Source: an uncultured Gammaproteobacteria bacterium
GTDB lineage: Bacteria; Patescibacteriota; Patescibacteriia; UBA1558; 2-01-FULL-52-15
Direction of reading: 5' to 3'
Assembly (NCBI GenBank): GCA_964487895.1
Contig: CAZASM010000004.1
Location: 1-55,641 of the forward strand
DNA length: 55,641 bases
Part shown: positions 11,196 to 47,889 of the stretch, one piece after another
Position numbering within the stretch: the first letter of the stretch is position 1
Layout: the number at the start of each line of letters is the position of its first letter
The notes under the pieces: generated by a model
Told to the model about the DNA's origin: nothing
The model's database searches: none
What the model saw: the letters and a program-made list of their open reading frames with translations, nothing else
Made by a program: the position numbers and the translations under genes

Positions 11196-11321
11196 TAATT
11201 TTTCAAGGGCAGGTCTCGACCTGCCCCTACAAATGCGAATTACATTTCCCCAATTCCTAATTTCTTAATTCATAATTCTTCATTCTTATTTTCTCACACT
11301 CGTGTTATAATAATCTCAATC

Positions 11322-33962: not shown

Positions 33963-34223
33963 TTAACGACCTTTCTTTTTCGCGGCCATTTTTTTCATTA
34001 GACCGATAGCAGCGATAGTAGCAGCTGCAGCAGCTATACCCTGAAAAATTTTCTTCTTCATCTTGGGATCAAGCTTGGTATACATTTTTTTCGCCTGAGT
34101 AGCGTGATCAATCACTTGGTCGATCATGCTATTGATATCGTTAGCGTCATCAGCTGCATTCTTGATGATTTTCTTAGTTGCCGTTGGCATATGTGTATGG
34201 TTAATGATTAGTATTTTTAGCAT
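33963..34223 (-). CDS. Small Lys-rich protein with C-terminal hydrophobic helix
   Basis: ORF only; host-like low GC. Confidence 0.35.
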   Translation of the reverse strand: MLKILIINHTHMPTATKKIIKNAADDANDINSMIDQVIDHATQAKKMYTKLDPKMKKKIFQGIAAAAATIAAIGLMKKMAAKKKGR

Positions 34224-34373
34224 AACATCAAATGTAGAAAGGCAACAGCTTTTTTGAGGTAAAAAATGTTGTAATACTTTTCGTTAATTTGAAAAAGCCC
34301 GTCAGCTATTGGCTAACGGGCTCGAGAACTTTTCGGTCATGATGACCAGGCTGTTCTCCTTACCTTGGTGAAG

Positions 34374-35237
34374 TTACTTGAGAAAGTTGATCCCCTGCTG
34401 AAACCGGAGTTCCAGCTGAGGCGATTGACCCTCCACGATGTGGTGGTTGAGTTCCAGTCGGGATCTCCAACCCAACTGGCGCTGGATAGAGAAGAGACCA
34501 CCGAAGCGATTGCTGGCATTGACCTCTTCGAACTGTGCGCCGACTGACCAAACTTCGCTGAGTTTGACGATGCCGTTGAAGTGCAACGCGGTGTTGTCAT
34601 ATTCACGACGGGCAAGTGCAAAGTTCAGTTGCAGCGGTCCGTGCGCTGTTCCGATGAAAATCGCTTCGTAGTCACGATTTCCACGCGGCTCAACCTGACC
34701 AACCAGACTTACTGTCAGGTCGGGAGCCAAGTTGAACACAATGCGTCCAGCCAGATCGAGATCACCGTCGACGTTTTTGTTCAGAACGCCCTCGCCGTTG
34801 TAAGCGGCAAGGTGCGCCGAGAAGCTCTTGTCGGTATAGCCGACCATCACGCCCTCGTCCACGAACTGAGGGTTCAGCTTGAGGAGCGGGGTCGACGGAA
34901 AGAAAACATTCCACGGCCCCGGATGATCATAGGTCGTCAGCGTCAGCAGGATGCCGGCATCGACCTTGAGCCCCGAACCCAGGACGTAATTGACGTCCAA
35001 GATCTGGGGTTTGTTACTGACGAGGTTGTACTCACCGACGAGCGTCAGGCGCTCGTTGATGACCTTCTTGCCCAGCAGCCGAGCCACGGGGATATCGAAG
35101 GCCTCGTTATCGCCGGCGATGCTGCCCGTGGTCTGGAAGTATCCCCACAGCAGGTTGGTGTTCGACTGGGCTTCGGCGGACTGACAGGTGATGCTAACGC
35201 CGAGGAAAGCCACCAGTGCGATCAGGACAGACTTCAT
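34374..35237 (-). CDS. Secreted beta-strand-rich protein (porin/outer-membrane-like or periplasmic), high GC
   Basis: Signal peptide MKSVLIALVAFLGVSITCQSAEA; alternating hydrophobic pattern; RBS aaggagg. Confidence 0.45.
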   Translation of the reverse strand: MKSVLIALVAFLGVSITCQSAEAQSNTNLLWGYFQTTGSIAGDNEAFDIPVARLLGKKVINERLTLVGEYNLVSNKPQILDVNYVLGSGLKVDAGILLTLTTYDHPGPWNVFFPSTPLLKLNPQFVDEGVMVGYTDKSFSAHLAAYNGEGVLNKNVDGDLDLAGRIVFNLAPDLTVSLVGQVEPRGNRDYEAIFIGTAHGPLQLNFALARREYDNTALHFNGIVKLSEVWSVGAQFEEVNASNRFGGLFSIQRQLGWRSRLELNHHIVEGQSPQLELRFQQGINFLK

Positions 35238-35460
35238 GAACTGCCTCCTTACGGTTGAGTTGGAATGCTATTGTATTTCGTCTACGCCGCTGAAGATCTC
35301 TAAGGGCCAAAAGGCCGAGAGCTACGATCTGGGAGATTATCAGACAGGTCCGATAATAACCACAGACAAGGTATCTCTATATTGATCCGCTAGACAGCTA
35401 AAGCTGGAGTAGATCAACCAGATCTCCATGGGTGTAGACGAAATATGATTTATAAATGTG

Positions 35461-35533
35461 CGTTACTTTTCTGAACCAACCATCATTGATGATGAGTTCG
35501 GAAGAGCGGACGATACACCGAGGTGTATCGTCC
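35461..35533 (-). repeat. Island-2 intergenic repeat, copy A (conserved arm plus variant hairpin cggacgatacac-ctcg-gtgtatcgtccg)
   Basis: Shares ttctgaaccaaYcatcWttgWtgatga...cggaagag with copy D. A hairpin occupies the same position as in copies B, C and D but has a different sequence. Confidence 0.6.
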
Positions 35534-35550
35534 GATCACTACTGTCGTGT

Positions 35551-35991
35551 TCAGGGTTCGTCAGTTGGGGTAGCTTTCACCAACCAAAGGAAGTCGTTGT
35601 GGTAGATGCCTTGTGAGTCATTGTAGTGTACGTTAGTCACAAGCACCTTTTGACCGGCACGGACATCAACAGGATGAACCGTCTTAATCGTGTATACGGT
35701 TCCTTTGGGGTCTCTTGCTTCAAAGAAGCACAGGCCAACTTCCGAAGCCTCGCTGATGATACCTGTGACGACTTCATAGGTCGCGGGCTTGGTCCAGGGA
35801 TCGGTCAGGATTTCAGTGGGTTTGTAGGGCTCCACCGGAGAGTCGACAGCGACCTGATCGCTGGCGATCGCCGTACTGCGATCGGGCCAAGGAGCGGTCG
35901 TGCCCTTGGTCTTGTCGATGTAGTAGTACAGCGCAATAACGACAACTGCCAGAAATCCAACGAACTTCCATGTACGCATAAAACGGGGCAT
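35551..35991 (-). CDS. NfeD-like short protein (N-terminal TM plus C-terminal OB-fold beta domain)
   Basis: TM helix followed by GTVYTIKTVHPVDVRAGQKVLVTNV, which resembles the NfeD C-terminal domain that usually partners SPFH proteins. Confidence 0.4.
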   Translation of the reverse strand: MPRFMRTWKFVGFLAVVVIALYYYIDKTKGTTAPWPDRSTAIASDQVAVDSPVEPYKPTEILTDPWTKPATYEVVTGIISEASEVGLCFFEARDPKGTVYTIKTVHPVDVRAGQKVLVTNVHYNDSQGIYHNDFLWLVKATPTDEP

Positions 35992-36068
35992 GGTAGAAAC
36001 CTCCTAAAAGAGTGAATAGCTATACAGTAGTGTTATATGTAAACCGCTAAGCTAGCGGTGTTTTCGAA

Positions 36069-36149
36069 GAACGAATTACACGTCTGAGACTACTAGATCA
36101 AAGTCTACTAATCTCGGATGTGTGGAGGAAGCGACGAATCGCTTCCTCC
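36069..36149 (-). repeat. Island-2 intergenic repeat, copy B (hairpin ggaggaagcg-acgaat-cgcttcctcc)
   Basis: About 85% identical to copy C over roughly 80 nt; lies immediately 3' of the stop of the 114-aa gene. Confidence 0.65.
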
Positions 36150-36154
36150 GATGA

Positions 36155-36498
36155 TTACCTCTGCTGCACCCAATGAATATGAGACGGATGAGTTGAGTGG
36201 AATTCGGACGTAACTCCGTCTCCCAACTCGATGAAAGACTGCCGAATCATTTTTTCGGCTTGGAGAAACCCTTCCGCCGCCGACGTTTCATCAGCAAATC
36301 GAAATTTCTCCAGAAAAACACCCGCCACTTCTGGTTGTTCCGTCTCGAATTCTTCGTCTCCGAAGGAGACGACCCAACCTTTTTCTTTTTCGATCATACC
36401 GTTACATGACGGTAAATCGAATCCAGGGGACCAGAGGAACAAGTCGCTTCCTCTGAGTACGCATTCGAGCCCTCTGTAACTGTTGATGCATGCGAACA
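36155..36498 (-). CDS. Acidic cytoplasmic 114-aa hypothetical protein
   Basis: Strong RBS gggaggagg 6 nt upstream of the ATG at 36498. The track ORF extends to 36700 only by reading through repeat C. Confidence 0.45.
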
Positions 36499-36617
36499 TT
36501 TTTGCCTCCTCCCACCGAAGTGGGGATGTAAGTCTGGCCGGTCTGCGCGGAATGCGTGACCGGTAGAGCCAATCCCCTTCGCTGCGGGGTAGAAAAAACT
36601 TTTTATTTGAATGTAAT

Positions 36618-36698
36618 GAACTTAGTACACATCTGAGATTATTAGAACGAAGTCTACTAATCTCGGATGTGTGGAGGAAGCGATGTTCTGCTTCCTCC
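36618..36698 (-). repeat. Island-2 intergenic repeat, copy C (hairpin ggaggaagcg-atgttctg-cttcctcc)
   Basis: See copy B; the hairpin loop differs while the stem is conserved. Confidence 0.65.
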
Positions 36699-36712
36699 AA
36701 TTTGAACCATGT

Positions 36713-37063
36713 TCAGCGTCGCAGCCAGAACAGCAAGAAAAATGTTACAGTTCCGATGAGCCAGATGATCCCACCTGATACCAGGATGAATCTTACTCGG
36801 CTGACACGTAACTTGCTACTGCAACGATCGATCAGGTCAGGCCTGATATATTGATTGCTGAAATGCACGTAGAGCAAGATGGCCAGTGTGGTTACTGACA
36901 TCCCACCCAAGTTCGAGAAACAGAGGTAAGCTATCGGCTCAAGCAGACCTCCTGGTCCGGTATAGGGGCAAATCAAAGCATCGCGGAGCATGAGACCAAA
37001 GATTAGAATCACGACAGGAATTGAAAATCCTGTCGGTACATCTAGACTTCTGCGATTGAGCAT
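36713..37063 (-). CDS. Three- to four-TM small membrane protein
   Basis: RBS ggagg; hydrophobic helices. Confidence 0.45.
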   Translation of the reverse strand: MLNRRSLDVPTGFSIPVVILIFGLMLRDALICPYTGPGGLLEPIAYLCFSNLGGMSVTTLAILLYVHFSNQYIRPDLIDRCSSKLRVSRVRFILVSGGIIWLIGTVTFFLLFWLRR

Positions 37064-37137
37064 TGAAACCTCCAGAAAACTGGTGCACAGCAGTAAGAAA
37101 GATGTATGTAAATTGTCTTAAAGACAGCTTATGAAAA

Positions 37138-37271
37138 GAACTTAGTACTCTTCTGAACCAATCATCTTGTATGATGACAAGCTCGGAAGAGTGGAGGAAG
37201 CGACGAATCGCTTCCTCCATGAGAACATTTCGGTCATGTTGACCAGGTTGTTCTCCTATACCTTGTTGAAG
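37138..37271 (-). repeat. Island-2 intergenic repeat, copy D (full-length: stop-proximal arm, ggaggaagcgacgaatcgcttcctcc hairpin, distal arm)
   Basis: Contains all modules. The stop-proximal arm ttcggtcatgWtgaccaggYtgttctcc...gaagTTA recurs as copy E (34324-34373) after the last gene. Confidence 0.65.
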
Positions 37272-39185
37272 TTACCTGCTGAATTCGGGAGACGACGGAC
37301 CGTCGGTCATCGGGGGCTCGTCACCTTCGACGCTCACTGAGGCGGCATCGGGGGTGAACGGAACCTTCCTGACTTCCGGCGCCTTGCGCTCGAGACTGTC
37401 CTTGATCAGGCCAGCCATGAGCACGTTGACGAGAGTGTTACCACCACCGTCAGCACCACCGCCAGCCACGACGTCCGGTACCAGCTTGAAACCGCTGGTG
37501 GACAGCGCGCGGGCGACTTCGATCATGGCGAAGTTGCCGGATTCCATGGAGTCGATCTTCTGCTTGATGACCTTGGCTTCGGACGTTCCGACAGCCATGA
37601 TCTTCTCGCCTTCAGCGGCGCCGACGGTCTTGAGGACCATAGCGTCAGCTTCAGCGACGAGCTTCTTGGACTCGGCTTCACCCTTGGCCTTCTCGACGGC
37701 CGCGTTGGCCTCGAAGGTCTTGATGGAAACCTGCCGTTCCGCCTTCACCACGTCGGGCTGTGTGTCCGCCATGGCCTGAGCCTGCTGCAGATCACGCCGG
37801 ACATCCTGAGCCTTCTTCTGGGAAGCATAGGTAACTTCCCGTTGTTCGGCCAGCTTCCGGTCGGTCAGCGTGGTCATGAGATCATCCGGCGGAACGATGT
37901 CACCGATGAGGGTGTCCACCGCCACGACGTTGTACTCGTTGAGCGCTTCGGAAATCTTCGTGCGAGCATCGGCTTGACGTGCTTCGCGACCGCGCAGGAA
38001 GTCGATGACATCCGACCCCTGAGCAGTGTTGCGGAAGTAGTTGCCGATGATCGGCTCCAGCACCTGTGTCACCAGGTTCAGGACGCTGCCGAAGCGTGCG
38101 ATGACCTTCGGCGCTTCCTTGCCCGGAATGTGGATGATCTGGGAGACGTCGAGGTTGAACTTGAAGCCGTCCGACGACCGAACGGTGATCGTCGACAGCT
38201 TCTCATCCAGCTTGTGTGCCTCGGTCTTGCCCGTGGCCCAGTTCAGGACCACGTTGGCGGTCGGCACGTTCTCGACCTTGTGGGTGTAGGAATTGATCGG
38301 GTACTTGCCAGGATCGAGTGTGTCGACCCAGACGCCCTTCTCCCCCCGAGTCACCAGATTGCCGTGCTTGAAGGCCTCACCGGTGACGTCCACGCCTGCC
38401 TTGCCCACGTAGGCGATGACAACGCCGACATGAGCGATAGGAACGGTGGTCATCTCTTTGATTTCCACCGTGGCGAAACGCGGGTTGATGAAGTAGCGAC
38501 CAGCGAGCATCACCTGTTCCTGGAGGCCCTTATGACCTCCATTGTCGATGAAGCTCTGGCCATCCTGGTACATGTTGTGGCCGACGATCTCGTTTCCAGC
38601 GATGTCGCCAGTTGCGAGGGGCTTGCCTTCACGCGTCGTCACGATGCCGACCATGTTGTCCTCGATCTCGAGCACATTGGTCATGACCACCGTGAAGAGT
38701 GCAGTGTTGATGCGGTAGGTGCCAGGTGGGATGATCGTGATCTGAGGACCACGCTCTCCACCGTTTTCCAAGAAAAGCCGAGCGCTCTGGAAAGAGTCGC
38801 ACTCGATTCTCTTGGCGAGCACGCGACCGCCGGACAGCGGCTTACCGTCACGCGACTCGACGACTCCGAGGCTACCCTCGGGGATTTCCAGGAACTTCAC
38901 GCGTTCCACCTCATACTGCCACGGCCAGAAGCCGAAGTGCAGTCCGGGCGCCAGCGTGTCGGCCTGGTAGCCAGCTTCGCCCTTGAGAGCGATGATGGCG
39001 CCGTCGGGCAGGGTACGGTTGCCTCCGAAGAGGACGAACTTCTTGTTCACCACGCCGAGGGAATCCTCGGGGATGATGACGACTCCGAAGAGTCGCACCC
39101 AGATCCGGTTGGTCAGGATCAGCAGGAACAGGACGATCACCCCGATTGCTACGGGGACAAAGGGTCCGAGCAGCTCTTTCACCAA
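37272..39185 (-). CDS. Flotillin-like SPFH (band 7) domain protein
   Basis: N-terminal TM, SPFH core, then a long Ala/Glu/Lys-rich coiled-coil (AEQREV...EKAKGEAESKKLVAEADAMV...) typical of bacterial flotillins. The likely start is the GTG at 39182. Confidence 0.75.
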   Translation of the reverse strand: MVKELLGPFVPVAIGVIVLFLLILTNRIWVRLFGVVIIPEDSLGVVNKKFVLFGGNRTLPDGAIIALKGEAGYQADTLAPGLHFGFWPWQYEVERVKFLEIPEGSLGVVESRDGKPLSGGRVLAKRIECDSFQSARLFLENGGERGPQITIIPPGTYRINTALFTVVMTNVLEIEDNMVGIVTTREGKPLATGDIAGNEIVGHNMYQDGQSFIDNGGHKGLQEQVMLAGRYFINPRFATVEIKEMTTVPIAHVGVVIAYVGKAGVDVTGEAFKHGNLVTRGEKGVWVDTLDPGKYPINSYTHKVENVPTANVVLNWATGKTEAHKLDEKLSTITVRSSDGFKFNLDVSQIIHIPGKEAPKVIARFGSVLNLVTQVLEPIIGNYFRNTAQGSDVIDFLRGREARQADARTKISEALNEYNVVAVDTLIGDIVPPDDLMTTLTDRKLAEQREVTYASQKKAQDVRRDLQQAQAMADTQPDVVKAERQVSIKTFEANAAVEKAKGEAESKKLVAEADAMVLKTVGAAEGEKIMAVGTSEAKVIKQKIDSMESGNFAMIEVARALSTSGFKLVPDVVAGGGADGGGNTLVNVLMAGLIKDSLERKAPEVRKVPFTPDAASVSVEGDEPPMTDGPSSPEFSR

Positions 39186-39528
39186 TTTCTCCTTTCGAGA
39201 GTGTTTTTGCCGCGCTTTGCGGCGTATTTCTGGAACTATAGGAAAATTGACTAAACTTTCTTACATTTTAACGAACCTCCTTGTGAGAGCCCGCCCTTCG
39301 GGTTTACAAAAGAATGTATTACCTTAGTACATATAATCATATTTGTCAAGAGTAGAATTGACATTTTGTGCTAATGTTAGCCATTTACATTTAAAAAGTG
39401 TTTAATATTAGCCAAAATTTGATTTTAGGCTGAAAATGTACTAAACTCATAGGAGTTAAGTATGAGTTAATAGATCCCTTTTCGCTAAAGCTTCAGGGGA
39501 TGTCGTCTATTTAATTTTAACGTGCTCC

Positions 39529-39921
39529 ATGTTTAAATTAAGCACTCGCGTACAATATGGACTTGAGGTAATGGAGGCTTTAGCTACTAAGCCTGATTTC
39601 GTCTCTTTAACTGATCTATCTGAGGAGATTCATCGCTCGGCTAATTATCTCCAGCAGATTATCAAACCATTGAAGGAAGCTGGTTTAGTGATCAGTAAAG
39701 AGGGTGTGACTGGCGGTATCAAGTTAGCTAAATCACCTAAGGCCATTACCTTGTATGATGTGTTAGTTGCTCTCGATGGTGAAGTACAACCTATCAGCTG
39801 TTTGTCAGATGATCACGCCTGTCCCACGAAGCAAACCTGTGGTCATCGGAAATATTGGAGTAAGGTGACAGATATATTAGAAGAACAATTTAAGAACACT
39901 ACTCTCATTGATTTGAAATAA
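39529..39921 (+). CDS. Rrf2-family (IscR/SufR-like) transcriptional regulator
   Basis: HTH LSTRVQYGLEVMEALA, and a C-x-C-x-C cluster (CLSDDHACPTKQTC) consistent with an Fe-S ligand region. Confidence 0.7.
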   Translation: MFKLSTRVQYGLEVMEALATKPDFVSLTDLSEEIHRSANYLQQIIKPLKEAGLVISKEGVTGGIKLAKSPKAITLYDVLVALDGEVQPISCLSDDHACPTKQTCGHRKYWSKVTDILEEQFKNTTLIDLK

Positions 39922-39922
39922 T

Positions 39923-40702
39923 ATGGCGCTAGAAATAAAGAATTTAGAATTAACCCTTCGACAAGCTCAGGGTGACAGTGTTGTGAAAAGTATTATCCAT
40001 GATTTGTCGTTGACGATTAATATGGGTGAGGTTCATGCCATCATGGGACCGAATGGTTCTGGTAAAAGTAGTTTGTCGCAAGCGCTGATTGGAAATACAA
40101 AATATGAAATTACTGCTGGTCAAGTTTTGATAGATGGTAAAAATTTACTGGAGATGAAACCTGATAGACGGTTACGTCAGGGACTATTTCTTGGTTTTCA
40201 GTATCCACGGGAGATCGAAGGTGTACGCATCTCTACTTTCCTCAAGGCGATATACGAAAATAAATGTAAAGCGGTGATGGGTGACAAGTACAAGCCTACC
40301 TTGATGATTCGTTTCACCAAAACATTAGCAGGATTGATGACTACTTTGGGCATTGATACATCCTACATGCATCGCTATCTGAATCATGGTTTCTCCGGTG
40401 GTGAGAAAAAGAAGTTAGAAATATTACAGATGCAAATGGTTGATCCGCGTTATGTGATTATGGATGAGATTGATTCTGGTTTGGATATTGATGCCGTGCG
40501 GGTTATTAGCACTGCTCTGAATAATTTTCGTTCCAAGCATACAGGACTGTTACTCATTACGCATTACGATAGGATTCTCAAACTGGTGAAGCCGGACTTT
40601 GTGCATATTATGGTTGATGGCAGGATTGTTAGGTCGGGTGGGCCGGAGTTAGCACAGCAAGTGGAAAAAGCAGGATACGAAGATTTTAAAGTAATACCGT
40701 AG
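39923..40702 (+). CDS. sufC: Fe-S cluster assembly ATPase SufC
   Basis: Walker A GPNGSGKSS and ABC signature FSGGEKKK. Confidence 0.85.
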   Translation: MALEIKNLELTLRQAQGDSVVKSIIHDLSLTINMGEVHAIMGPNGSGKSSLSQALIGNTKYEITAGQVLIDGKNLLEMKPDRRLRQGLFLGFQYPREIEGVRISTFLKAIYENKCKAVMGDKYKPTLMIRFTKTLAGLMTTLGIDTSYMHRYLNHGFSGGEKKKLEILQMQMVDPRYVIMDEIDSGLDIDAVRVISTALNNFRSKHTGLLLITHYDRILKLVKPDFVHIMVDGRIVRSGGPELAQQVEKAGYEDFKVIP

Positions 40703-42271: not shown

Positions 42272-43075
42272 ATGTCAGAAATATTTAAAACATTACAGAC
42301 CCTTCCAGTTCCAGCTAGGCAAAAGGCCTGGGCTGATGTTGATTTTGGTTCGACAGAAAAAAGATTAAACGGTGAACAAATTATAATCGATGAATTACCA
42401 GACACTATCGACTGTCAGAAGATTATCATTGAAGCAGATTCAGATATTCAATACGTCATAATACAGAACGACCCCGCTGAGCGGGGTTCATTCCGTACGC
42501 GACAATTTTATCTACAACAGAACGCTAAATTAGAACTAATTACAATTATTCTAGGAAGCGCAACGTCAGAATTAATTCAAGAGGTGTATTTGCAAGGAGC
42601 TGGCGCCGTCAGCTTGCAAAAGGTTGTAGTGATCGGCACAGGTCAACAGAAAATAAATTTGATTGCCAATAATATCCATGTAGCGCCAGATTGCCATTCC
42701 GACATCACAGTAAAGACAATTCTCTCCGGATCAGCAATTTCTGCTTTTAACGGCTTGATCAAGATTCATAATGGAGCTCAACAGACCAACGCTTATCTTC
42801 GTCACGATACCTACGTGTTATCCGAGACAGCCAAGAACATTACTATCCCTGGACTGGAGATAGATGCTAATGATGTGAAGGCTAGCCACAGCGCCAGTCA
42901 GAGTAAGCTAAAGCCTGAAGATTTGCTCTATCTGACTAGCCGCGGTTTGACGGAAACACTAGCAAGGAGTTTAATACTAGAGGGGTTTGTTAATTCCATA
43001 GTAGGAAGTATTAAGGAGAAGGTAGTAAGGGATGAGATGGTAGAGTTACTGATAAAGAAATTAAATAATCTATGA
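42272..43075 (+). CDS. sufD: SufD (short form)
   Basis: SufBD-fold C-terminus and its position in the suf operon. Confidence 0.65.
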   Translation: MSEIFKTLQTLPVPARQKAWADVDFGSTEKRLNGEQIIIDELPDTIDCQKIIIEADSDIQYVIIQNDPAERGSFRTRQFYLQQNAKLELITIILGSATSELIQEVYLQGAGAVSLQKVVVIGTGQQKINLIANNIHVAPDCHSDITVKTILSGSAISAFNGLIKIHNGAQQTNAYLRHDTYVLSETAKNITIPGLEIDANDVKASHSASQSKLKPEDLLYLTSRGLTETLARSLILEGFVNSIVGSIKEKVVRDEMVELLIKKLNNL

Positions 43076-43515
43076 ATAATTCGGAGATTATAGTAGTTGA
43101 GAAAACCATGTGTATTCTGATGGATAATCAAAGTCGTCTTCTTGCTAGCAAAGGTTACGACAAGGTTAAAAATGAGGTGTTTTATCGGTTGCTCGGTGGT
43201 AGTTTGAATTCTGGGGAAGATCCAGAGGTGGGTATTCGGAGGGAAATTAGAGAGGAGCTGAATTCAGAATTAGATGAGTTGGAAAGTTTGGCGATAGTTG
43301 ATAACCCATTTGTCTATGAGGGTCAGTCTAGACGTCAGACGATATATTTATTTAGAGGTAAATTAGCTGATAAGAATATAGAGAATAAAGATACAGTCCA
43401 CATTGTTGAAGAAAAATATAAGTTTGATGCTTATTGGATACCAGTCAAAGATGTGCTTGAAAAAAAGATTATACTATATCCACCATTTGATCAGGATAAA
43501 TTTTTGAAATGCTAG
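43072..43515 (+). CDS. NUDIX hydrolase
   Basis: NUDIX box LGGSLNSGEDPEVGIRREIREELNSEL. Confidence 0.65.
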   Translation: MNNSEIIVVEKTMCILMDNQSRLLASKGYDKVKNEVFYRLLGGSLNSGEDPEVGIRREIREELNSELDELESLAIVDNPFVYEGQSRRQTIYLFRGKLADKNIENKDTVHIVEEKYKFDAYWIPVKDVLEKKIILYPPFDQDKFLKC

Positions 43516-44726
43516 ACGTTCGTCAAGATTTTCCAATTCTAAAAAGACAAGTTAATGGCAAGCCATTGATCTATCTTGATAATGCTGCTACCACCCAGAA
43601 GCCCAATGTAGTGATTGAAGCTGAGGTTGATTATTATCGTCAGTATAATGCTAATGTTCACCGTGGCATCCATGCTTTAGCCGAAGAAGCTACTACAGCC
43701 TACGAGAATTCACGTGAGAAAGTTTGTCAGTTATTGAACGCTGTCTCCACCAAAGAAATCATCTTCACCCGCGGTACGACAGAAAGTATCAATCTGGCCG
43801 CCTATGCTTGGGCCAGACACAATCTGAAAGCAGGGGATGAGATCGTTGTGTCCATTGTTAATCACCATTCCAATATCGTGCCGTGGCAGATGATCGCCAG
43901 AGAAACTGGGGCGGTAATTAAATGGCTTGACCTTGATGGCGAATTTAGAATTAAGAATGAAGAATTAAGAAATTTTCTCAGCAGTGGGAAAGTTAAACTT
44001 GTGGCTCTGACACATGCTTCTAATACTTTAGGTTTGTTGTACGACGTCAAACCCTTGATCAAGCAAGCTCATGAAGCTGGTGCCTTGGTAATACTCGACG
44101 GTGCGCAGTCAGTACCACACAGCCAGATTGATGTGCAGGATTTGGATTGTGACTTTTTCGCTTTCTCTGGGCATAAGATGTGCGGTCCAACCGGCATCGG
44201 TGTCTTATACGCCAAGGAAAAGATTCTAGACACCATGAAACCATTTCACGGTGGCGGAGAAATGATCAAAGCAGTGACCAAAGAAGACTTTGTAACCAAC
44301 GATCTACCATGGAAGTTCGAAGCTGGTACACCAAATATGGCTGGAGTGATCGGTCTCGGCGTAGCGATTGATTATTTACAAAAAATTGGCTGGCCTGCTA
44401 TTCATCAGCACGAGCAAGAATTGACGCAGTATGCTCTGGAGCAGATGAAGCAAATTGAGAAATTACATATCATGGGTCCGACGGAGGCGGAAAACAGAAT
44501 AGGGGTTATTGCCTTCATTATTGACGGTATGCATCCACATGATATTGCCGCCGAGTTAGACAAACACGGTATCGCAGTACGTGCTGGGCATCATTGTACG
44601 CAGCCGTTGCATACACAGTTAGGTTTGAATGGTAGTACGAGAGCGAGTTTTTATATCTATAATACGAGGGAAGAGGTTGATAAGCTCATTTCAGGGATAC
44701 GAGAAGTAATTAAAATTTACACTTAA
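43509..44726 (+). CDS. sufS: Cysteine desulfurase SufS (group II)
   Basis: PLP-lysine region SGHKMCGPTGIG and the active-site loop HHCTQPL. Confidence 0.85.
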   Translation: MLDVRQDFPILKRQVNGKPLIYLDNAATTQKPNVVIEAEVDYYRQYNANVHRGIHALAEEATTAYENSREKVCQLLNAVSTKEIIFTRGTTESINLAAYAWARHNLKAGDEIVVSIVNHHSNIVPWQMIARETGAVIKWLDLDGEFRIKNEELRNFLSSGKVKLVALTHASNTLGLLYDVKPLIKQAHEAGALVILDGAQSVPHSQIDVQDLDCDFFAFSGHKMCGPTGIGVLYAKEKILDTMKPFHGGGEMIKAVTKEDFVTNDLPWKFEAGTPNMAGVIGLGVAIDYLQKIGWPAIHQHEQELTQYALEQMKQIEKLHIMGPTEAENRIGVIAFIIDGMHPHDIAAELDKHGIAVRAGHHCTQPLHTQLGLNGSTRASFYIYNTREEVDKLISGIREVIKIYT

Positions 44727-44775
44727 GCCTATCATTGCGAGCGAATTGTCACCCTGAGCTTGTCGAAGGGCGACA

Positions 44776-45237
44776 ATGAGCGAAGCAATCCGTCATAAGG
44801 ACAGATTGCTTCGCCCCGAGTACGGGACTCGCAATGACAATAATAATATGGACCCACACGCCCAACAAATAATCGAACTCTACAAACATCCTTTAAACTT
44901 CGGCAAAGATGAGACTGCCGATATTATTAAGATTGGGATGAACTTATCATGCGGAGACCAAGTGAGTATGTATATTAAATTAAGAAATAAGAAAGAAGAA
45001 TTAAGAGTAATTGAATCGATTACTTTTGAAGGTACTGGATGCTCCGTCAGTGTGGCGTCGGCATCTCTACTAACGGAAATGCTAAAAGGAAAAACTCTGG
45101 AGGAGGTTTTGAGCTGGGGAGCGAAAGAGATTGAGCAGATGTTGGGAGTGGAGATGGGACCGAGTAGGTTGAAGTGCGCTTTACTGCCGCTGGATACTAT
45201 TCAGGAGGGCATTAAGGAATTTAGAATTAAGAAATAA
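44776..45237 (+). CDS. sufU: SufU/IscU-like sulfur acceptor (start possibly at the ATG at 44845)
   Basis: Conserved Cys ligands NLSCGD, GTGCSVS and RLKCALL. The first 23 codons of the track ORF overlap a perfect 11-bp hairpin; starting at 44845 (MDPHAQQIIELYKHPLNFG) gives a canonical N-terminus. Confidence 0.75.
   Translation: MSEAIRHKDRLLRPEYGTRNDNNNMDPHAQQIIELYKHPLNFGKDETADIIKIGMNLSCGDQVSMYIKLRNKKEELRVIESITFEGTGCSVSVASASLLTEMLKGKTLEEVLSWGAKEIEQMLGVEMGPSRLKCALLPLDTIQEGIKEFRIKK
45167..45213 (+). repeat. Direct repeat copy 1 (3' end of sufU), duplicated at 45905-45950
   Basis: ggttgaagtgcgctttactgccgctggatactattcaggagggcatt versus ggttgaagtgcgctttactgccg-tggatactattcaggaaggcatt: 45/47 identical; the second copy is frameshifted. 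Confidence 0.8.
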
Positions 45238-45300
45238 GAATTAAGAAAATAGGTCAAAAGGCAAAATTCAAAAATATAATAATAAATCAAAAATACTAAT

Positions 45301-45885
45301 ATGGCGTTATCAACATATCATCAAAAGTATGCAGATCAATCTGCCGAAGAGATACAAAGAAAAGTTGAGGCAAAAAAGGAGGAGCTAATTGCCATTTTTC
45401 AAGAGACCAAGCTGCAAACAGATAGTAATCCTGTACGACTTGCGGTGCTGGGTTGTGGTGATAGACGCTTCGTTGCGCAGCATAAAATCATTTTTGAAGC
45501 AGTCATCGATAGATCAGTGGAAGTCAGCACATTTGATATCACTATTGATCACCTTCAGGGCGAGTCAAATATTTTTCAGCATGATTGTACTCTTCCTTTA
45601 CCAGATCAGCCGTATGATATTACCTATGCGCATGTGTTATTGAAGTTTATCGAACTTTCTAAACAGTTTGACCTGATAAAAAATTCTTATCATGCTTTGA
45701 AGTCCGGTGGTGTTGCTATACATTGTTTTGACACGGAGGAAATTACCGCTTCAGATACTAAGCTTATAAATGGTCAATGGGCTGTCCCATTAGAGGAATA
45801 TAAAAAACAGTTGTCTGAGTTAGATATTGAACATAAGGAAATCCCCATTAAGTATGGAATTGCTTTAGTGCTGATACGGAAGTAA
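45301..45885 (+). CDS. Small class I SAM-dependent methyltransferase-like protein
   Basis: Motif I-like LAVLGCGDRRF and a post-I-like LKSGG. Flanked by the 47-nt duplication. Confidence 0.45.
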   Translation: MALSTYHQKYADQSAEEIQRKVEAKKEELIAIFQETKLQTDSNPVRLAVLGCGDRRFVAQHKIIFEAVIDRSVEVSTFDITIDHLQGESNIFQHDCTLPLPDQPYDITYAHVLLKFIELSKQFDLIKNSYHALKSGGVAIHCFDTEEITASDTKLINGQWAVPLEEYKKQLSELDIEHKEIPIKYGIALVLIRK

Positions 45886-45904
45886 CTCAAGAGTTAGGAG
45901 AGTC

Positions 45905-45950
45905 GGTTGAAGTGCGCTTTACTGCCGTGGATACTATTCAGGAAGGCATT
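45905..45950 (+). repeat. Direct repeat copy 2 (degenerate duplicate of sufU 3' end)
   Basis: See copy 1. Confidence 0.8.
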
Positions 45951-45989
45951 TGGGAAAGTCAAAAGTAAAAAATCAAAACTGAAAACTAA

Positions 45990-46022
45990 AACTCAAAACC
46001 GGAAAAGTTTTGAGTTTTTACT
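45990..46022. terminator. Bidirectional terminator (aaaactcaaaaccggaaaagttttgagttttt)
   Basis: Perfect stem with flanking A and T runs. Confidence 0.65.
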
Positions 46023-46044
46023 TGTATATTTTACTTTTGACTTT

Positions 46045-46917
46045 TTAGTTTTGAGTTTTCCAATCTTTTAGAGCCTGTTCAACGGCTTCATGTACCTCTG
46101 TCATATGCACCCCAGCAGCTTCACGTTTGTCGGAGTTTAGTACACAGCTAGAACGGCGTGCTTTGGCTGCGGTTTTCATGAAGTCGTCTTCGTTAGCAAA
46201 AAATTTAAATTCTTTGGTGGAGATACCGGATTTTTTAATCAGTTCTACTGCTTCCTGCGTTGTAATAAATCCCGGATTGGTCATATTATAGGTTCCGAAC
46301 GGGATTTTTTTGTCAAAGCATTCATAACAAGCTCGGGCAAATTCATCTATCTGAGACAATGAGTTAGTAGCGTTTAATAAGGTGTCGTAGGTTATCCATT
46401 TGGTTAGAATATTGCGATTGTTGTCTACATTATTAAATGGCACGCGCAGTCGCCAGAGATAGCAGGTAGTGGCATCAGCTAGGATTTCCTCAGCTAGTGC
46501 TTTGGTACCAGAGTAGAAGCTACAGTTGTTATGACGGAAGTCAAAATTTGGCACATCCGTTTCTCGGAAGCCCTGACCGTCAGGACTATTACCTTCATAG
46601 ATACAGCCAGATGATACATGCCCCCACGGCAACTGCAACTCATTGCATATTTGCATGGTATGTCCGGGGAAGATGACGTTACCTTCTAATGTTTCCAACT
46701 TATGTAGTTCACAAGCATCGACATTTGGTTTGCCCGTATAGCCAGCACAGTTCACCAAGAAGTCTGGTTTGATATCAGCAATAATTTGGCGCAAAACCTC
46801 CGGCTGAGTGTAGTCTCTCTCTGAGCGTGGAATATTTTTGAAAGCGATATTATTCTGTTGAAAGAATGTTTGAAAGGCTTGGCCGACGTAGCCGCTGCCG
46901 CCTAATAATAGAATCAT
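46045..46917 (-). CDS. NAD(P)-dependent sugar-nucleotide reductase/epimerase, RmlD-like (SDR fold)
   Basis: Rossmann N-terminus MILLLGGSGYVGQAF and an overall RmlD-like layout. Confidence 0.55.
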   Translation of the reverse strand: MILLLGGSGYVGQAFQTFFQQNNIAFKNIPRSERDYTQPEVLRQIIADIKPDFLVNCAGYTGKPNVDACELHKLETLEGNVIFPGHTMQICNELQLPWGHVSSGCIYEGNSPDGQGFRETDVPNFDFRHNNCSFYSGTKALAEEILADATTCYLWRLRVPFNNVDNNRNILTKWITYDTLLNATNSLSQIDEFARACYECFDKKIPFGTYNMTNPGFITTQEAVELIKKSGISTKEFKFFANEDDFMKTAAKARRSSCVLNSDKREAAGVHMTEVHEAVEQALKDWKTQN

Positions 46918-47001: not shown

Positions 47002-47889
47002 TTAATTAATATTGCCAGCCAAGTGTTTAATAGATGTTCGTTTAGTATATCCCATTTTGTTTTTGATTTCCTCTTCAGATAATCCTTGTGTATACAGCTT
47101 CGCTAGTCGTGCTCGGCGTAAATCATTGGCTGTTAGGTTTAATCCTGCACTGTGAGCATATTTTTCAATCACTCTCTGAACGGAACGGCTAGTCATGGGT
47201 TTGGGCTTTTTCACTTCTCTACCGCCGACAGCTCGATCATGGGAGATGAAAATATAGGGGTTAGGATAGGATCCGCCTGTGGTGGAAGGGCGTAGGGTTA
47301 AATAATCTTGGATATATCCTCTGACAGATTGAGAAAGTGGTAATTCATGATGACCCTGATGATCTTCATAGCGAATTTTATTCTTTTTCACCTGTTCAAT
47401 TCTCAGATTTGCAACGACTGCCAGCTTCAACCCAGTCTCTAGCATGAGACTAATTAAAGCTTGGTCTCTTTTTTTGATAATCAGAGGAGCGCGAGAGCTC
47501 ATGACTGACCGTAGAAGTTTAGTAAGTTCTGCTGTTGTTGGCAAGGTGGGTTGAGTTGCGTCAACTTTAGTCAATTTGATGGCTTTGGTGACTCGCAGGT
47601 TAACATTATGGGTAGATAGATATTGCAAAAAGTTTCTCAGAGCAATTAGATGATAGTTAATAGTTTTTTTATCTAGTTTTGTCTGACGGCCTTTGAGAGT
47701 TTTGAGATATGTTCGGTAATTAATAATTAGTGAATCAGTAATTTGTGCTGGTGTAGTTACCTTAGACCAGCGCAAAAAACGGCGTAGGTATAGTTCATAA
47801 TTACGAACGGTTAGAGGTGAGCGTTTTTTGATAAATTCCCACTCTTCCAGAAAGCTCAGTAACAATTTTTCTAAGGTATATGATGCCAT
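47002..47889 (-). CDS. Tyrosine recombinase, XerC/XerD/phage-integrase family (divergent catalytic C-terminus)
   Basis: The N-terminal SAM-like core-binding domain (LTVRNYELYLRRFLRW) is clear. The catalytic region (LRRARLAKLY...MGYTKRTS) is degenerate relative to the canonical HxLRH...LGH...Y. Confidence 0.6.
   Translation of the reverse strand: MASYTLEKLLLSFLEEWEFIKKRSPLTVRNYELYLRRFLRWSKVTTPAQITDSLIINYRTYLKTLKGRQTKLDKKTINYHLIALRNFLQYLSTHNVNLRVTKAIKLTKVDATQPTLPTTAELTKLLRSVMSSRAPLIIKKRDQALISLMLETGLKLAVVANLRIEQVKKNKIRYEDHQGHHELPLSQSVRGYIQDYLTLRPSTTGGSYPNPYIFISHDRAVGGREVKKPKPMTSRSVQRVIEKYAHSAGLNLTANDLRRARLAKLYTQGLSEEEIKNKMGYTKRTSIKHLAGNIN

What the first reader, a model, noticed from the sequence alone, without database searches (positions are those of the whole stretch)
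45167..45950. Methyltransferase-like gene inserted into the sufU 3' end, flanked by a 47-nt direct duplication
The last 47 nt of sufU (45167-45213) recur at 45905-45950 with one base deleted and one substitution, right after the 194-aa SAM-MTase-like ORF. The arrangement looks like a single-gene insertion of about 690 bp that rebuilt an intact sufU C-terminus and left a frameshifted relic copy. Insertions with long flanking duplications are typical of site-specific cassette insertion or homing events, not transposase-mediated target-site duplications (which are under 15 bp). The cargo is a tiny MTase of unknown target, sitting between Fe-S assembly genes and a sugar-nucleotide reductase.
Basis: seen in the sequence. 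Interest (0 to 1): 0.6.

Follow-up and report, generated by a model that had tools for sequence, protein, structure and literature searches.

The report
Old methyltransferase insertion behind sufU
A small methyltransferase gene was inserted long ago just behind the iron-sulfur gene sufU in a group of uncultured ultra-small (CPR) bacteria, leaving the original end of sufU as a dead copy downstream; the event is real and well documented by relatives that lack it, but it looks like ordinary host recombination at a hotspot, not a new kind of mobile element.

Summary
The repeat is real: 45162-45219 recurs at 45900-45956 with one base missing, and shuffles give no chance matches. Relatives settle what it is. 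Two close relatives and two outgroups have sufU (…ESQK*) running into a long terminator hairpin and the convergent rmlD-like gene, with no methyltransferase. The window's second copy is colinear with that empty site, so it is the original sufU tail. The insertion is old, because three other lineages share it. In about 40 other CPR genomes the same 194-aa methyltransferase sits elsewhere.

- The duplication probably covers about 100 nt (sufU tail plus left hairpin arm), which puts the gene at the hairpin tip.
- The new sufU C-terminus (FRIKK*) comes from a 28-nt AAG-rich patch also present in sufS.
- The repeat looks fresh only because its 5' half was overwritten from the working copy. It matches the window's own sufU at 27/28 positions and the orthologous relics at 13/28.

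Other relatives carry different cargo at the same spot, also flanked by long duplications. No cargo encodes a recombinase, transposase or homing enzyme. Host recombination or repair at a hairpin hotspot, followed by allele shuffling, fits best. Interest is modest.

The parts
43944..43971 (+). AAG-rich 28-mer inside sufS (encodes ..FRIKNEELR..). It is a paralogue, and possibly the template, of the patch that now forms the sufU C-terminus.
   Evidence: Exact pattern match. 94% over 32 nt to 45217-45248. The same copy lies in sufS of L051, and in the sufU tail of L004.
44848..45237 (+). Working sufU (129 aa from the ATG at 44848). The longer ORF call from 44776 starts inside a palindromic mini-element.
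   Evidence: Pfam NifU_N, E = 1e-24. TIGR01994 SufU scores 83.9 bits, below its 92.5 cutoff. Relatives start at MDPHAQQ.
45162..45219 (+). Upstream repeat copy: sufU codons ..SRLKCALLPLDTIQEGIKE.
45220..45249 (+). AAG-rich patch that supplies the new C-terminus F-R-I-K-K-stop. It is absent from the empty-site allele, which reads S-Q-K-stop here.
   Evidence: Alignment to the empty site diverges right after ..GAA.
45250..45300 (+). sufU-methyltransferase spacer, read as a diverged copy of the left arm of the terminator hairpin. No promoter-like site was found in it.
   Evidence: It is the best non-self match in the whole window to the empty-site left arm: score 33 against 26 for the next best, over 7410 windows. 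Shuffle p is about 0.002. It matches the region downstream of sufU in L062 at 40/43. Promoter scan.
45301..45885 (+). 194-aa class I SAM-dependent methyltransferase of an uncharacterised family seen so far in CPR genomes. This is the inserted cargo.
   Evidence: 266 homologues, nearly all 193-195 aa. AlphaFold model pLDDT 91. Foldseek probability 1.0 to small class I methyltransferases. Pfam Methyltransf_11 only at 17.4 bits, below its 21.2 cutoff.
45886..45899 (+). Junction after the methyltransferase stop codon. It is unique to this genome; L001, L004 and L043 share a different junction.
45900..45927 (+). 5' part of the relic, overwritten by gene conversion from the window's own sufU.
   Evidence: 27/28 identical to 45162-45189, against 13/28 to the orthologous relics of L004, L001 and L043.
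45928..45968 (+). 3' part of the relic: the original sufU tail ..DTIQEGIWESQK with the old stop at 45966-45968. It is out of frame with the 5' part because of the 1-nt gap.
   Evidence: 26/27 identical to the L004 relic. Colinear with the empty-site sufU tail of L051 and L055.
45955..46051 (.). Long imperfect hairpin (45-nt arms built of AAAAC-type heptads). It is the shared terminator of the convergent genes, and the old sufU stop and the rmlD stop both lie inside it.
   Evidence: Inverted repeat I1. Fold of -47 kcal/mol, z = -3.1. Terminator-like hit. Only about four differences from L051 across the terminator hairpin in the alignment.
46045..46917 (-). Convergent RmlD-like NAD(P)-dependent reductase; the right-hand flank of the site.
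   Evidence: Pfam RmlD_sub_bind, E = 1e-21. TIGR01214 scores far below its cutoff. It is syntenic in all relatives.
47002..47889 (-). Xer-like tyrosine recombinase. This is context only: it is present next to occupied and empty sites alike, and no role is shown.
   Evidence: Pfam Phage_integrase. Below every NCBIfam Xer or integron cutoff. Present in the empty loci L051, L058 and L060.

Best explanation
This is an old structural polymorphism, not an active mobile cassette.

Shown:
- In the ancestral arrangement of this CPR clade, sufU (…GI[KR]ESQK*) runs straight into a long hairpin that terminates both sufU and the convergent rmlD-like gene.
- In one allele a roughly 0.6-kb gene for a conserved CPR class I SAM methyltransferase lies between two copies of the sufU tail.
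- The downstream copy is the original tail plus terminator and is now non-coding.
- The upstream copy is the working 3' end of sufU.
- The insert has no mobility gene.

Inferred:
- The duplicated unit is about 100 nt (the last 17-25 sufU codons plus the left hairpin arm), so the gene sits at the former hairpin tip.
- The most likely origin is host break repair or template switching at the hairpin. A break or stalled fork at the tip was followed by copying of the methyltransferase DNA, and synthesis then resumed about 100 nt upstream on the intact template, which duplicated that stretch.
- With the terminator now behind it and no promoter-like site or hairpin in the spacer, the methyltransferase is probably read through from the suf operon.

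Later events:
- A 28-nt AAG-rich patch, also present in sufS, changed the working tail to …EFRIKK*.
- Alleles (empty, methyltransferase, other cargo) were shuffled among lineages by homologous recombination.
- In this genome the 5' half of the relic was overwritten by gene conversion from the working copy, which makes the repeat look long and fresh.
For: Empty sites and orientation of the event:
- L051 and L055 (close relatives) and L058 and L060 (outgroups) have sufU, hairpin and rmlD with no methyltransferase.
- The relic plus hairpin in the window is colinear with them.
- Window, L004/L007, L001-L003 and L043 share the occupied structure.
- The methyltransferase lies elsewhere in about 40 other CPR genomes, with no shared neighbours.

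Extent of the duplication:
- The spacer is the top non-self match to the hairpin's left arm in the whole window (shuffles).
- The spacer is orthologous to the region downstream of sufU in L062.

Later changes:
- Gene conversion of the relic: 27/28 to own sufU versus 13/28 to orthologous relics, while the 3' part is 26/27 to the L004 relic.
- Mosaic identity along the methyltransferase: the 5' half is 90-96% identical to L001, the 3' half 88-90% to L004.
- The AAG-rich patch recurs in sufS.

Hotspot and lack of mobility genes:
- Other cargo at the same site also carries long flanking duplications (L052; L056).
- No recombinase, transposase or homing domain is found in any cargo.

Expression context: hairpin stability and no promoter-like site in the spacer.
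Against: - The mechanism is inferred from end products only.
- The left-arm homology rests on A-rich, low-complexity sequence. The score is 33, and L004 and L001 spacers taken alone are not significant.
- The presence/absence pattern does not follow the rmlD and xer similarity groups, so the order of events cannot be read from a tree.
- L062 carries the 'occupied-type' sufU tail and spacer without the methyltransferase. This fits either a later deletion or an independent allele. The latter would favour recombination between two alleles over in-situ duplication.
- The 5' part of the L052 relic resembles L004-type sufU more than its own sufU, which also hints at a donor allele.
- All relatives are metagenome contigs.
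Confidence: 0.45

Rival explanations
1. Campbell-type 'insertion-duplication'. A circular or looped DNA carrying the methyltransferase plus a sufU-tail segment from a different allele integrated by one RecA crossover inside the sufU tail. The homologous segment was thereby duplicated. The working tail and spacer are donor-derived, and the right part of the relic is recipient-derived.
For: - The anatomy is exactly that of insertion-duplication: an intact upstream copy and a 5'-truncated downstream copy.
- The working tail and spacer are of the L062 (H2) allele type, while the relic and hairpin are of the L051 (H1) type.
- The 5' part of the L052 relic is closer to L004-type sufU than to its own.
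- Frequent homologous exchange among these lineages is visible.
Against: - It needs a prior donor with sufU tail, spacer and methyltransferase contiguous and no relic. None was found.
- The homology available for the crossover is only about 40-100 nt.
- It does not by itself explain why the gene sits at the hairpin tip.
- Natural transformation delivers linear single strands, not circles (general knowledge, not tested here).
Confidence: 0.25
2. Decayed or satellite integrative element. The sufU 3' end or the hairpin is an attachment site. Cargo units carrying a partial copy of it are integrated by a tyrosine recombinase supplied in trans, for example the Xer-like gene 1 kb away. This would resemble islands at the 3' ends of tRNA genes or prophages at icd.
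For: - Partial copies of the target gene flank the insert.
- The same place holds three or four different cargoes in relatives.
- A tyrosine recombinase gene is always 1 kb away.
- That gene is unusually divergent between lineages.
Against: - No integrase lies within any cargo.
- The recombinase is equally present at empty sites and in the outgroup.
- It scores below every Xer and integron cutoff.
- Duplication length and boundaries differ between cargoes.
- No recombinase lies near the methyltransferase in about 40 other genomes, and those loci have no comparable flanking repeats.
- There are no viral or element contigs with the gene or with the sufU tail.
- There is no third tail copy in the window.
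Confidence: 0.12
3. The methyltransferase is ancestral at this position. The empty loci are deletions, and the relic arose from a local tandem duplication unrelated to any insertion.
For: - Recombination between the two repeat copies would delete the gene and precisely restore an ..ESQK* sufU.
- The empty loci L051 and L055 group with the occupied window and L004 by rmlD and xer similarity.
- L062, the nearest relative of L004, lacks the gene.
Against: - Both outgroups (L058, L060) are empty and have the ancestral hairpin.
- All more distant homologues of the methyltransferase lie in unrelated contexts.
- Secondary loss in some lineages is likely, but that does not make the gene ancestral.
Confidence: 0.08
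4. Chance similarity or an assembly artefact.
For: The window is a metagenome-assembled contig, and the region is A-rich.
Against: - No matches appear in shuffles, and BLAST gives E = 3e-19.
- The same architecture appears in independent assemblies from ENA, NCBI and Logan samples.
Confidence: 0.01

Closest known systems
Prophages and islands integrated into the 3' end of a gene that carry a substitute 3' end (e14 and phage 21 in E. coli icd; islands at tRNA 3' ends, e.g. tycheposons, bioRxiv 10.1101/2020.12.28.424599)
   Same: The target gene stays intact with a new 3' end, and a dead partial copy of the original 3' end is left on the far side of the insert. Repeated use of one site gives remnants and nested partial copies. 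The tycheposon paper describes elements flanked by partial tRNAs and degenerate remnants. The icd example is from my own knowledge.
   Different: There is no integrase in the insert or in any alternative cargo. The duplications have no fixed core or length. The new 3' end here comes from a diverged copy of the hairpin arm plus a patch also found in sufS, not from element DNA. The cargo is a single ordinary gene.
Insertion-duplication (Campbell-type single-crossover integration), as used for mutagenesis in naturally transformable bacteria (own knowledge)
   Same: Heterologous DNA is flanked by a direct duplication of a contiguous target segment. If the segment includes the gene's 3' end, the gene stays intact and a 5'-truncated copy lies downstream.
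   Different: This would be a natural event with very short homology (about 40-100 nt). No circular donor is known. The position at the hairpin tip is not predicted by this mechanism.
Horizontal-transfer hotspots between conserved core genes that lack mobile-element genes and turn over by homologous recombination in the flanks (own knowledge of comparative-genomics literature)
   Same: One intergenic spot between syntenic core genes (sufU, rmlD-like) holds different cargo in different lineages. Mosaic identity shows flank-mediated exchange.
   Different: Here each cargo is bracketed by a long duplication of the target itself, and the spot is a long terminator hairpin.
Homology-facilitated illegitimate recombination during natural transformation (reviewed in e.g. 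PMC8116780 and PMC3410848, found)
   Same: Foreign DNA is added next to a homologous anchor without any element-encoded enzyme.
   Different: As I recall it, this process normally replaces or deletes recipient DNA and does not duplicate it. I did not read the listed papers for this point.

Membership tests
Transposon / insertion sequence | Transposase gene or terminal inverted repeats at the insert ends | tested here: not met
   The insert holds one ORF with only a weak methyltransferase hit. No inverted repeats were found at its ends.
Transposon / insertion sequence | Short target-site duplication (about 2-15 bp) | tested here: not met
   The duplication is at least 52 nt in the window, and probably about 100 nt.
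Integrase-mediated integrative element at a gene 3' end | Partial copies of the target gene at both ends of the insert | tested here: met
Integrase-mediated integrative element at a gene 3' end | Integrase or recombinase encoded within the element | tested here: not met
   The nearby Xer-like gene lies outside the repeats and is also present at empty sites.
Integrase-mediated integrative element at a gene 3' end | Constant crossover core shared by all elements using the site | tested here: inconclusive
   Relic left boundaries differ between the window, L004/L001/L043, L052 and L056. Decay and gene conversion blur them.
Integrase-mediated integrative element at a gene 3' end | Excised circular form or attP | not testable with these tools
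   This needs raw reads. Viral-contig scans for the gene and for the sufU tail found nothing.
Integron gene cassette | Divergently placed IntI-type integrase next to attI, with an array of cassettes | tested here: not met
   The recombinase is co-oriented with rmlD, 1 kb from the site, and scores 25.5 bits against a 265 cutoff for the integron-integrase model. Each locus has a single insert.
Integron gene cassette | attC hairpin with RYYYAAC / GTTRRRY core sites, recurring at each cassette | tested here: not met
   By inspection, the hairpin arms are AAAAC/GTTTT heptads without these cores. The hairpin sequence has no other copy in the window.
Homing endonuclease gene / intron / intein | Endonuclease domain or intron/intein structure in the insert | tested here: not met
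   There are no such Pfam, NCBIfam or PHROG hits and no Rfam family at the locus.
Campbell-type insertion-duplication | Direct duplication of one contiguous target segment around the foreign DNA, with the upstream copy joined to the intact gene and the downstream copy 5'-truncated | tested here: met
Campbell-type insertion-duplication | Circular donor carrying the homologous segment | not testable with these tools
   No donor was found. L062 shows only that the working-tail allele exists without the methyltransferase.
Class I SAM-dependent methyltransferase | Rossmann-like methyltransferase fold | tested here: met
   Model pLDDT 91.4, pTM 0.88. Foldseek probability 1.0 with TM about 0.6 to 3dtn, DhpI, BelI, CysG, TehB and CmoA at 12-18% identity.
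Class I SAM-dependent methyltransferase | Glycine-rich motif I and acidic residues that bind SAM | tested here: inconclusive
   G51, G53, D54, D79 and D95 are invariant in 18 homologues. The motif reads LGCGD, not GxGxG. Assigning these residues to SAM contacts is inference.
Class I SAM-dependent methyltransferase | Match to a curated family above its threshold | tested here: not met
   Methyltransf_11 scores 17.4 bits against a 21.2 cutoff. Only 7 of 18 homologues match weakly. No NCBIfam hit. The best PDB sequence hit has E = 0.005.
SufU (Fe-S sulfur-transfer protein) | NifU_N domain, suf operon context, curated SufU model | tested here: inconclusive
   NifU_N scores 87.5 bits, above its cutoff, and the gene follows sufCBD-sufS. 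TIGR01994 scores 83.9 bits against a 92.5 cutoff, probably because of the inserted loop.

The most novel reading that the evidence does not exclude
The long heptad hairpin between sufU and rmlD could be a dedicated capture site. The adjacent, fast-diverging Xer-like tyrosine recombinase would insert promoterless single genes there, under suf-operon read-through. That would be an integron-like gene-capture device in CPR bacteria that duplicates its target.
Probability: 0.05. Interest if true: 0.8.

Novelty: new member of a known kind. Interest (0 to 1): 0.33.

Why it matters
This is a clean, fully bracketed case of gene gain in uncultured CPR bacteria. Empty, occupied and alternatively occupied alleles are all available. 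It shows that these reduced genomes exchange and convert short DNA tracts across lineages that are only about 80% identical. It also shows that a terminator hairpin between convergent core genes can act as a landing pad that puts a promoterless gene under operon control without damaging either neighbour.

It flags a well-conserved, uncharacterised 194-aa methyltransferase family that is patchily distributed in CPR genomes and moves between contexts. It does not reveal a new mobility mechanism.

Tried and rejected
1. General mobility signature of the methyltransferase. I compared 500-nt flanks in 49 loci. Only the sufU-linked clade has this duplication. L008 is a tandem gene pair, L012 and L015 share a 19-27-nt leader with the next gene (NUDIX), and L024 is flanked by two tRNAs. 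There are no conserved neighbours.
2. Metagenome scan with the rmlD-like protein to find more empty sites. It returned only an unrelated high-GC rml operon (L050).
3. Viral contigs. They hold neither the methyltransferase nor the sufU tail.
4. dif/terminus idea (Xer-exploiting elements). GC skew stays positive across nearly the whole window, with no switch, and there is no third tail copy.
5. 'Methyltransferase remnant' in the 55-nt tip of the L062, L056 and L061 allele. It looked plausible by eye but is not significant (p about 0.6-0.7) and has no match elsewhere. I dropped it.
6. Flanking duplication around the NUDIX insertion in the same operon. None was found.
7. Defence-system and phage libraries for the methyltransferase. 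PADLOC gave nothing, and PHROGs gave only a weak tRNA-methyltransferase hit at E = 1e-4.
8. Rfam. Nothing at the locus.
10. Source names for the window's proteins. None are on record.
Full report
**1.

The window encodes Rrf2, sufC, sufB, sufD, a NUDIX gene, sufS and sufU. These are followed by a 194-aa ORF, a convergent RmlD-like gene and a Xer-like tyrosine recombinase.

The segment 45162-45219 near the end of sufU recurs at 45900-45956, just after the 194-aa ORF, with one base missing after 45927. BLAST gives 94% over 52 nt, E = 3e-19. A 24-mer from the repeat has two matches in the window and none in 100 shuffles.

- The repeat stops 24 nt before the sufU stop.
- It begins at 45162.
- sufU most likely starts at 44848. 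Relatives begin with MDPHAQQ, and the longer ORF starts inside a palindromic mini-element.

**2. Relatives show which copy is the original**

The 194-aa protein has 266 homologues, nearly all 193-195 aa. Those with source names are labelled as CPR/Patescibacteria groups.

Only the closest ones (86-87% identity, plus a partial one at 83%) lie behind sufU. These are L001-L003, L004/L005/L007 and L043, and all have the relic too. In about 40 other species-level genomes the gene lies elsewhere, with no shared neighbours.

A search with SufU found close homologues ending in …GIRESQK, the peptide encoded by the relic. Their contigs L051 and L055 have sufS, sufU, then 75 nt, then the convergent rmlD-like gene and the xer-like gene, with no methyltransferase. 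The outgroups L058 and L060 (Komeilibacteria) have the same arrangement.

The window's relic and the hairpin behind it align base for base with this empty site. So the empty state is ancestral, the methyltransferase is an insertion, and the downstream copy is the displaced original sufU tail.

**3. Finer anatomy**

- *The hairpin.* In the empty allele the last sufU codons are already part of the left arm of a long imperfect hairpin. Its 45-nt arms are AAAAC-type heptads, and it also covers the rmlD stop.
- *The left junction.* In the window the working copy matches the empty allele up to …GGCATTAAGGAA and then diverges.
- *The AAG-rich patch.* The next 28-33 nt (TTTAGAATTAAGAAATAAGAATTAAGAA…) are AAG-rich. 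An exact counterpart lies inside sufS (43944-43971) and a 3-mismatch copy in the sufU loop. The patch supplies the new end F-R-I-K-K-stop.
- *The spacer.* The remaining spacer (45250-45300) is the best non-self match in the whole window to the left hairpin arm of the empty allele: score 33 against 26 for the next best, over 7410 windows. Shuffles reach that score in 0.2-0.8% of trials. It matches the region downstream of sufU in L062 at 40/43.

From this I infer that the duplicated unit was about 100 nt, made of the sufU tail plus the left arm, and that the gene sits at the former hairpin tip. The upstream copy has no right arm and no promoter-like site. The methyltransferase is therefore probably transcribed by read-through from the suf operon and terminated by the retained hairpin. 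This is inference.

**4. Why the repeat looks fresh here**

The 5' 28 nt of the window's relic match the window's own sufU at 27/28, including window-specific bases. They match the orthologous relics of L004, L001 and L043 at only 13/28. The 3' 27 nt match the L004 relic at 26/27, including its odd TGG codon.

The relic is therefore chimeric. An old 3' part is joined to a 5' part overwritten by gene conversion from the working copy, with one base lost at the joint. L004, L001 and L043 share a different post-gene junction.

**5. A recombining hotspot**

Sliding identity shows a mosaic:
- The 5' half of the methyltransferase is 90-96% identical to L001 but 70-78% to L004.
- The 3' half is 88-90% identical to L004.

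By rmlD and xer similarity, the empty loci L051 and L055 group with the occupied window and L004, while the occupied L001 and L043 stand apart. L062, the nearest relative of L004, has the working-type tail and spacer but no methyltransferase and no relic.

Other relatives hold other cargo at the same place:
- L052 holds a 768-aa M12-like protease flanked by a duplication of about 150 nt, covering the tail and the whole hairpin.
- L056 holds three unknown genes flanked by 200 nt or more, including a relic of the rmlD 3' end.
- L061 holds an 80-aa ORF.

None of these cargoes encodes a recombinase.

**6. Mechanism**

*Shown:* there is no transposase, integrase or homing enzyme in the insert. The long duplications differ in length between cargoes. 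The site is a strong hairpin. Short-tract homologous exchange is frequent.

*Inferred, best fit (about 0.45):* a break or stalled fork at the hairpin tip was repaired by copying the methyltransferase DNA. Synthesis then resumed about 100 nt upstream on an intact template, which duplicated that stretch.

*Rivals:*
- Single-crossover integration of DNA carrying a sufU tail from another allele (0.25). This is favoured by the existence of the L062-type allele and by the allele-like 5' part of the L052 relic.
- A decayed att-based element served in trans by the Xer-like enzyme (0.12).
- The gene being ancestral (0.08).
- An artefact (0.01).

**7. The cargo**

The protein is a class I SAM-dependent methyltransferase by fold. 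The model has pLDDT 91. Foldseek gives probability 1.0 to small methyltransferases such as MM_2633, DhpI, BelI, CysG, TehB and CmoA, at 12-18% identity.

It belongs to no curated family. There is no defence-system hit and only a weak phage tRNA-methyltransferase hit.

Invariant residues include an N-terminal S-x-YH-xx-Y motif, LGCGD, D79, D95-C96-T97 and several histidines. Its target is unknown. Adjacency to NUDIX in L012 and a methyltransferase-NUDIX fusion (P0080) hint at a nucleotide-like substrate. This is a lead only.

**8. Comparison and verdict**

The anatomy matches elements that integrate into a gene's 3' end and leave a partial copy. Examples are e14 and phage 21 at icd (from my own knowledge) and tRNA-targeting islands. 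It also matches laboratory insertion-duplication. It fails the defining tests for transposons, integrase-bearing elements, integron cassettes and homing elements (see the membership table).

It is best filed as a well-resolved example of recombination-driven gene gain at a hotspot between core genes. Novelty is low to moderate: a new member of a known kind.

**Caveats**
- All relatives are metagenome contigs.
- The arm homologies are in A-rich sequence.
- Because alleles are shuffled by recombination, the order of events cannot be read from a tree.

Noticed in passing
window 43072-43515: A 147-aa NUDIX gene sits between sufD and sufS and overlaps both (ATGA at its start, ATGCTAG at its end). 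It is present in the window and L052 but absent in L001, L004, L051 and L056. No flanking duplication was found. Elsewhere the methyltransferase family is adjacent to NUDIX (L012) or fused to it (P0080). Other relatives have other single genes wedged into the suf operon: a 281-aa ORF in L001 and L056, a 144-aa ORF in L051, and a glyoxalase-family gene in L052.
   Followed up: partly
window 44727-44848 and 39954-39977: A GC-rich palindromic mini-element of about 120 nt lies between sufS and sufU. It is shared with L001 and absent in L004. A 24-nt stretch of it recurs, inverted and identical, inside sufC, where it encodes an in-frame LRQAQGDS insertion. Similar short GC-rich inserts sit in the L004 spacer, the L043 relic, the L052 sufU tail and the L056 relics. 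This is reminiscent of in-frame palindromic elements such as those of Rickettsia.
   Followed up: partly
window 43944-43971, 44980-45007, 45220-45247 (also about 39940-39953, 11261-11291, 2257-2285): An AAG-rich 28-33-nt repeat (…EFRIKNEELR… when read in frame) occurs inside sufS, in the variable loop of sufU and as the new sufU tail. In sufC and in the L056 relic the GC-rich mini-element is inserted at the same point of this repeat (GAATTTAGAATTAA^).
   Followed up: partly
window 45301-45885 versus L001 and L004: The methyltransferase gene is a mosaic. Its first 230 nt or so are 90-96% identical to L001, while the flanks are about 78% identical. Its last 180 nt or so are closest to L004. This is evidence of recent short-tract recombination between diverged CPR lineages.
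   Followed up: yes
window 47002-47889: The Xer-like recombinase gene keeps its position in all relatives but falls into at least three groups that are barely alignable at DNA level (about 45-50% nt identity). The neighbouring rmlD is 70-89% identical between relatives. This suggests replacement or very fast evolution.
   Followed up: partly
L008 4001-5310; L012 3970-4617; L015 3978-4616: L008 carries two tandem copies of the methyltransferase (72% and 70% identical to the window protein) with a repeated upstream region. In L012 and L015 the same 19-27-nt A/T-rich leader precedes both the methyltransferase and the next gene (a NUDIX gene in L012).
   Followed up: partly
window 46045-46917; L050: The RmlD-like gene is 61% identical at protein level to the rmlD of a high-GC, non-CPR rmlD-rmlB-rmlA operon. 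In the CPR clade it stands alone next to the recombinase. It may be an old horizontal acquisition.
   Followed up: no
window 34000-40000: GC content rises to about 0.51, against about 0.41-0.45 elsewhere, with long overlapping ORFs on both strands (for example 37272-39185 on the minus strand and 37842-39254 on the plus strand). Rfam found no rRNA there.
   Followed up: no
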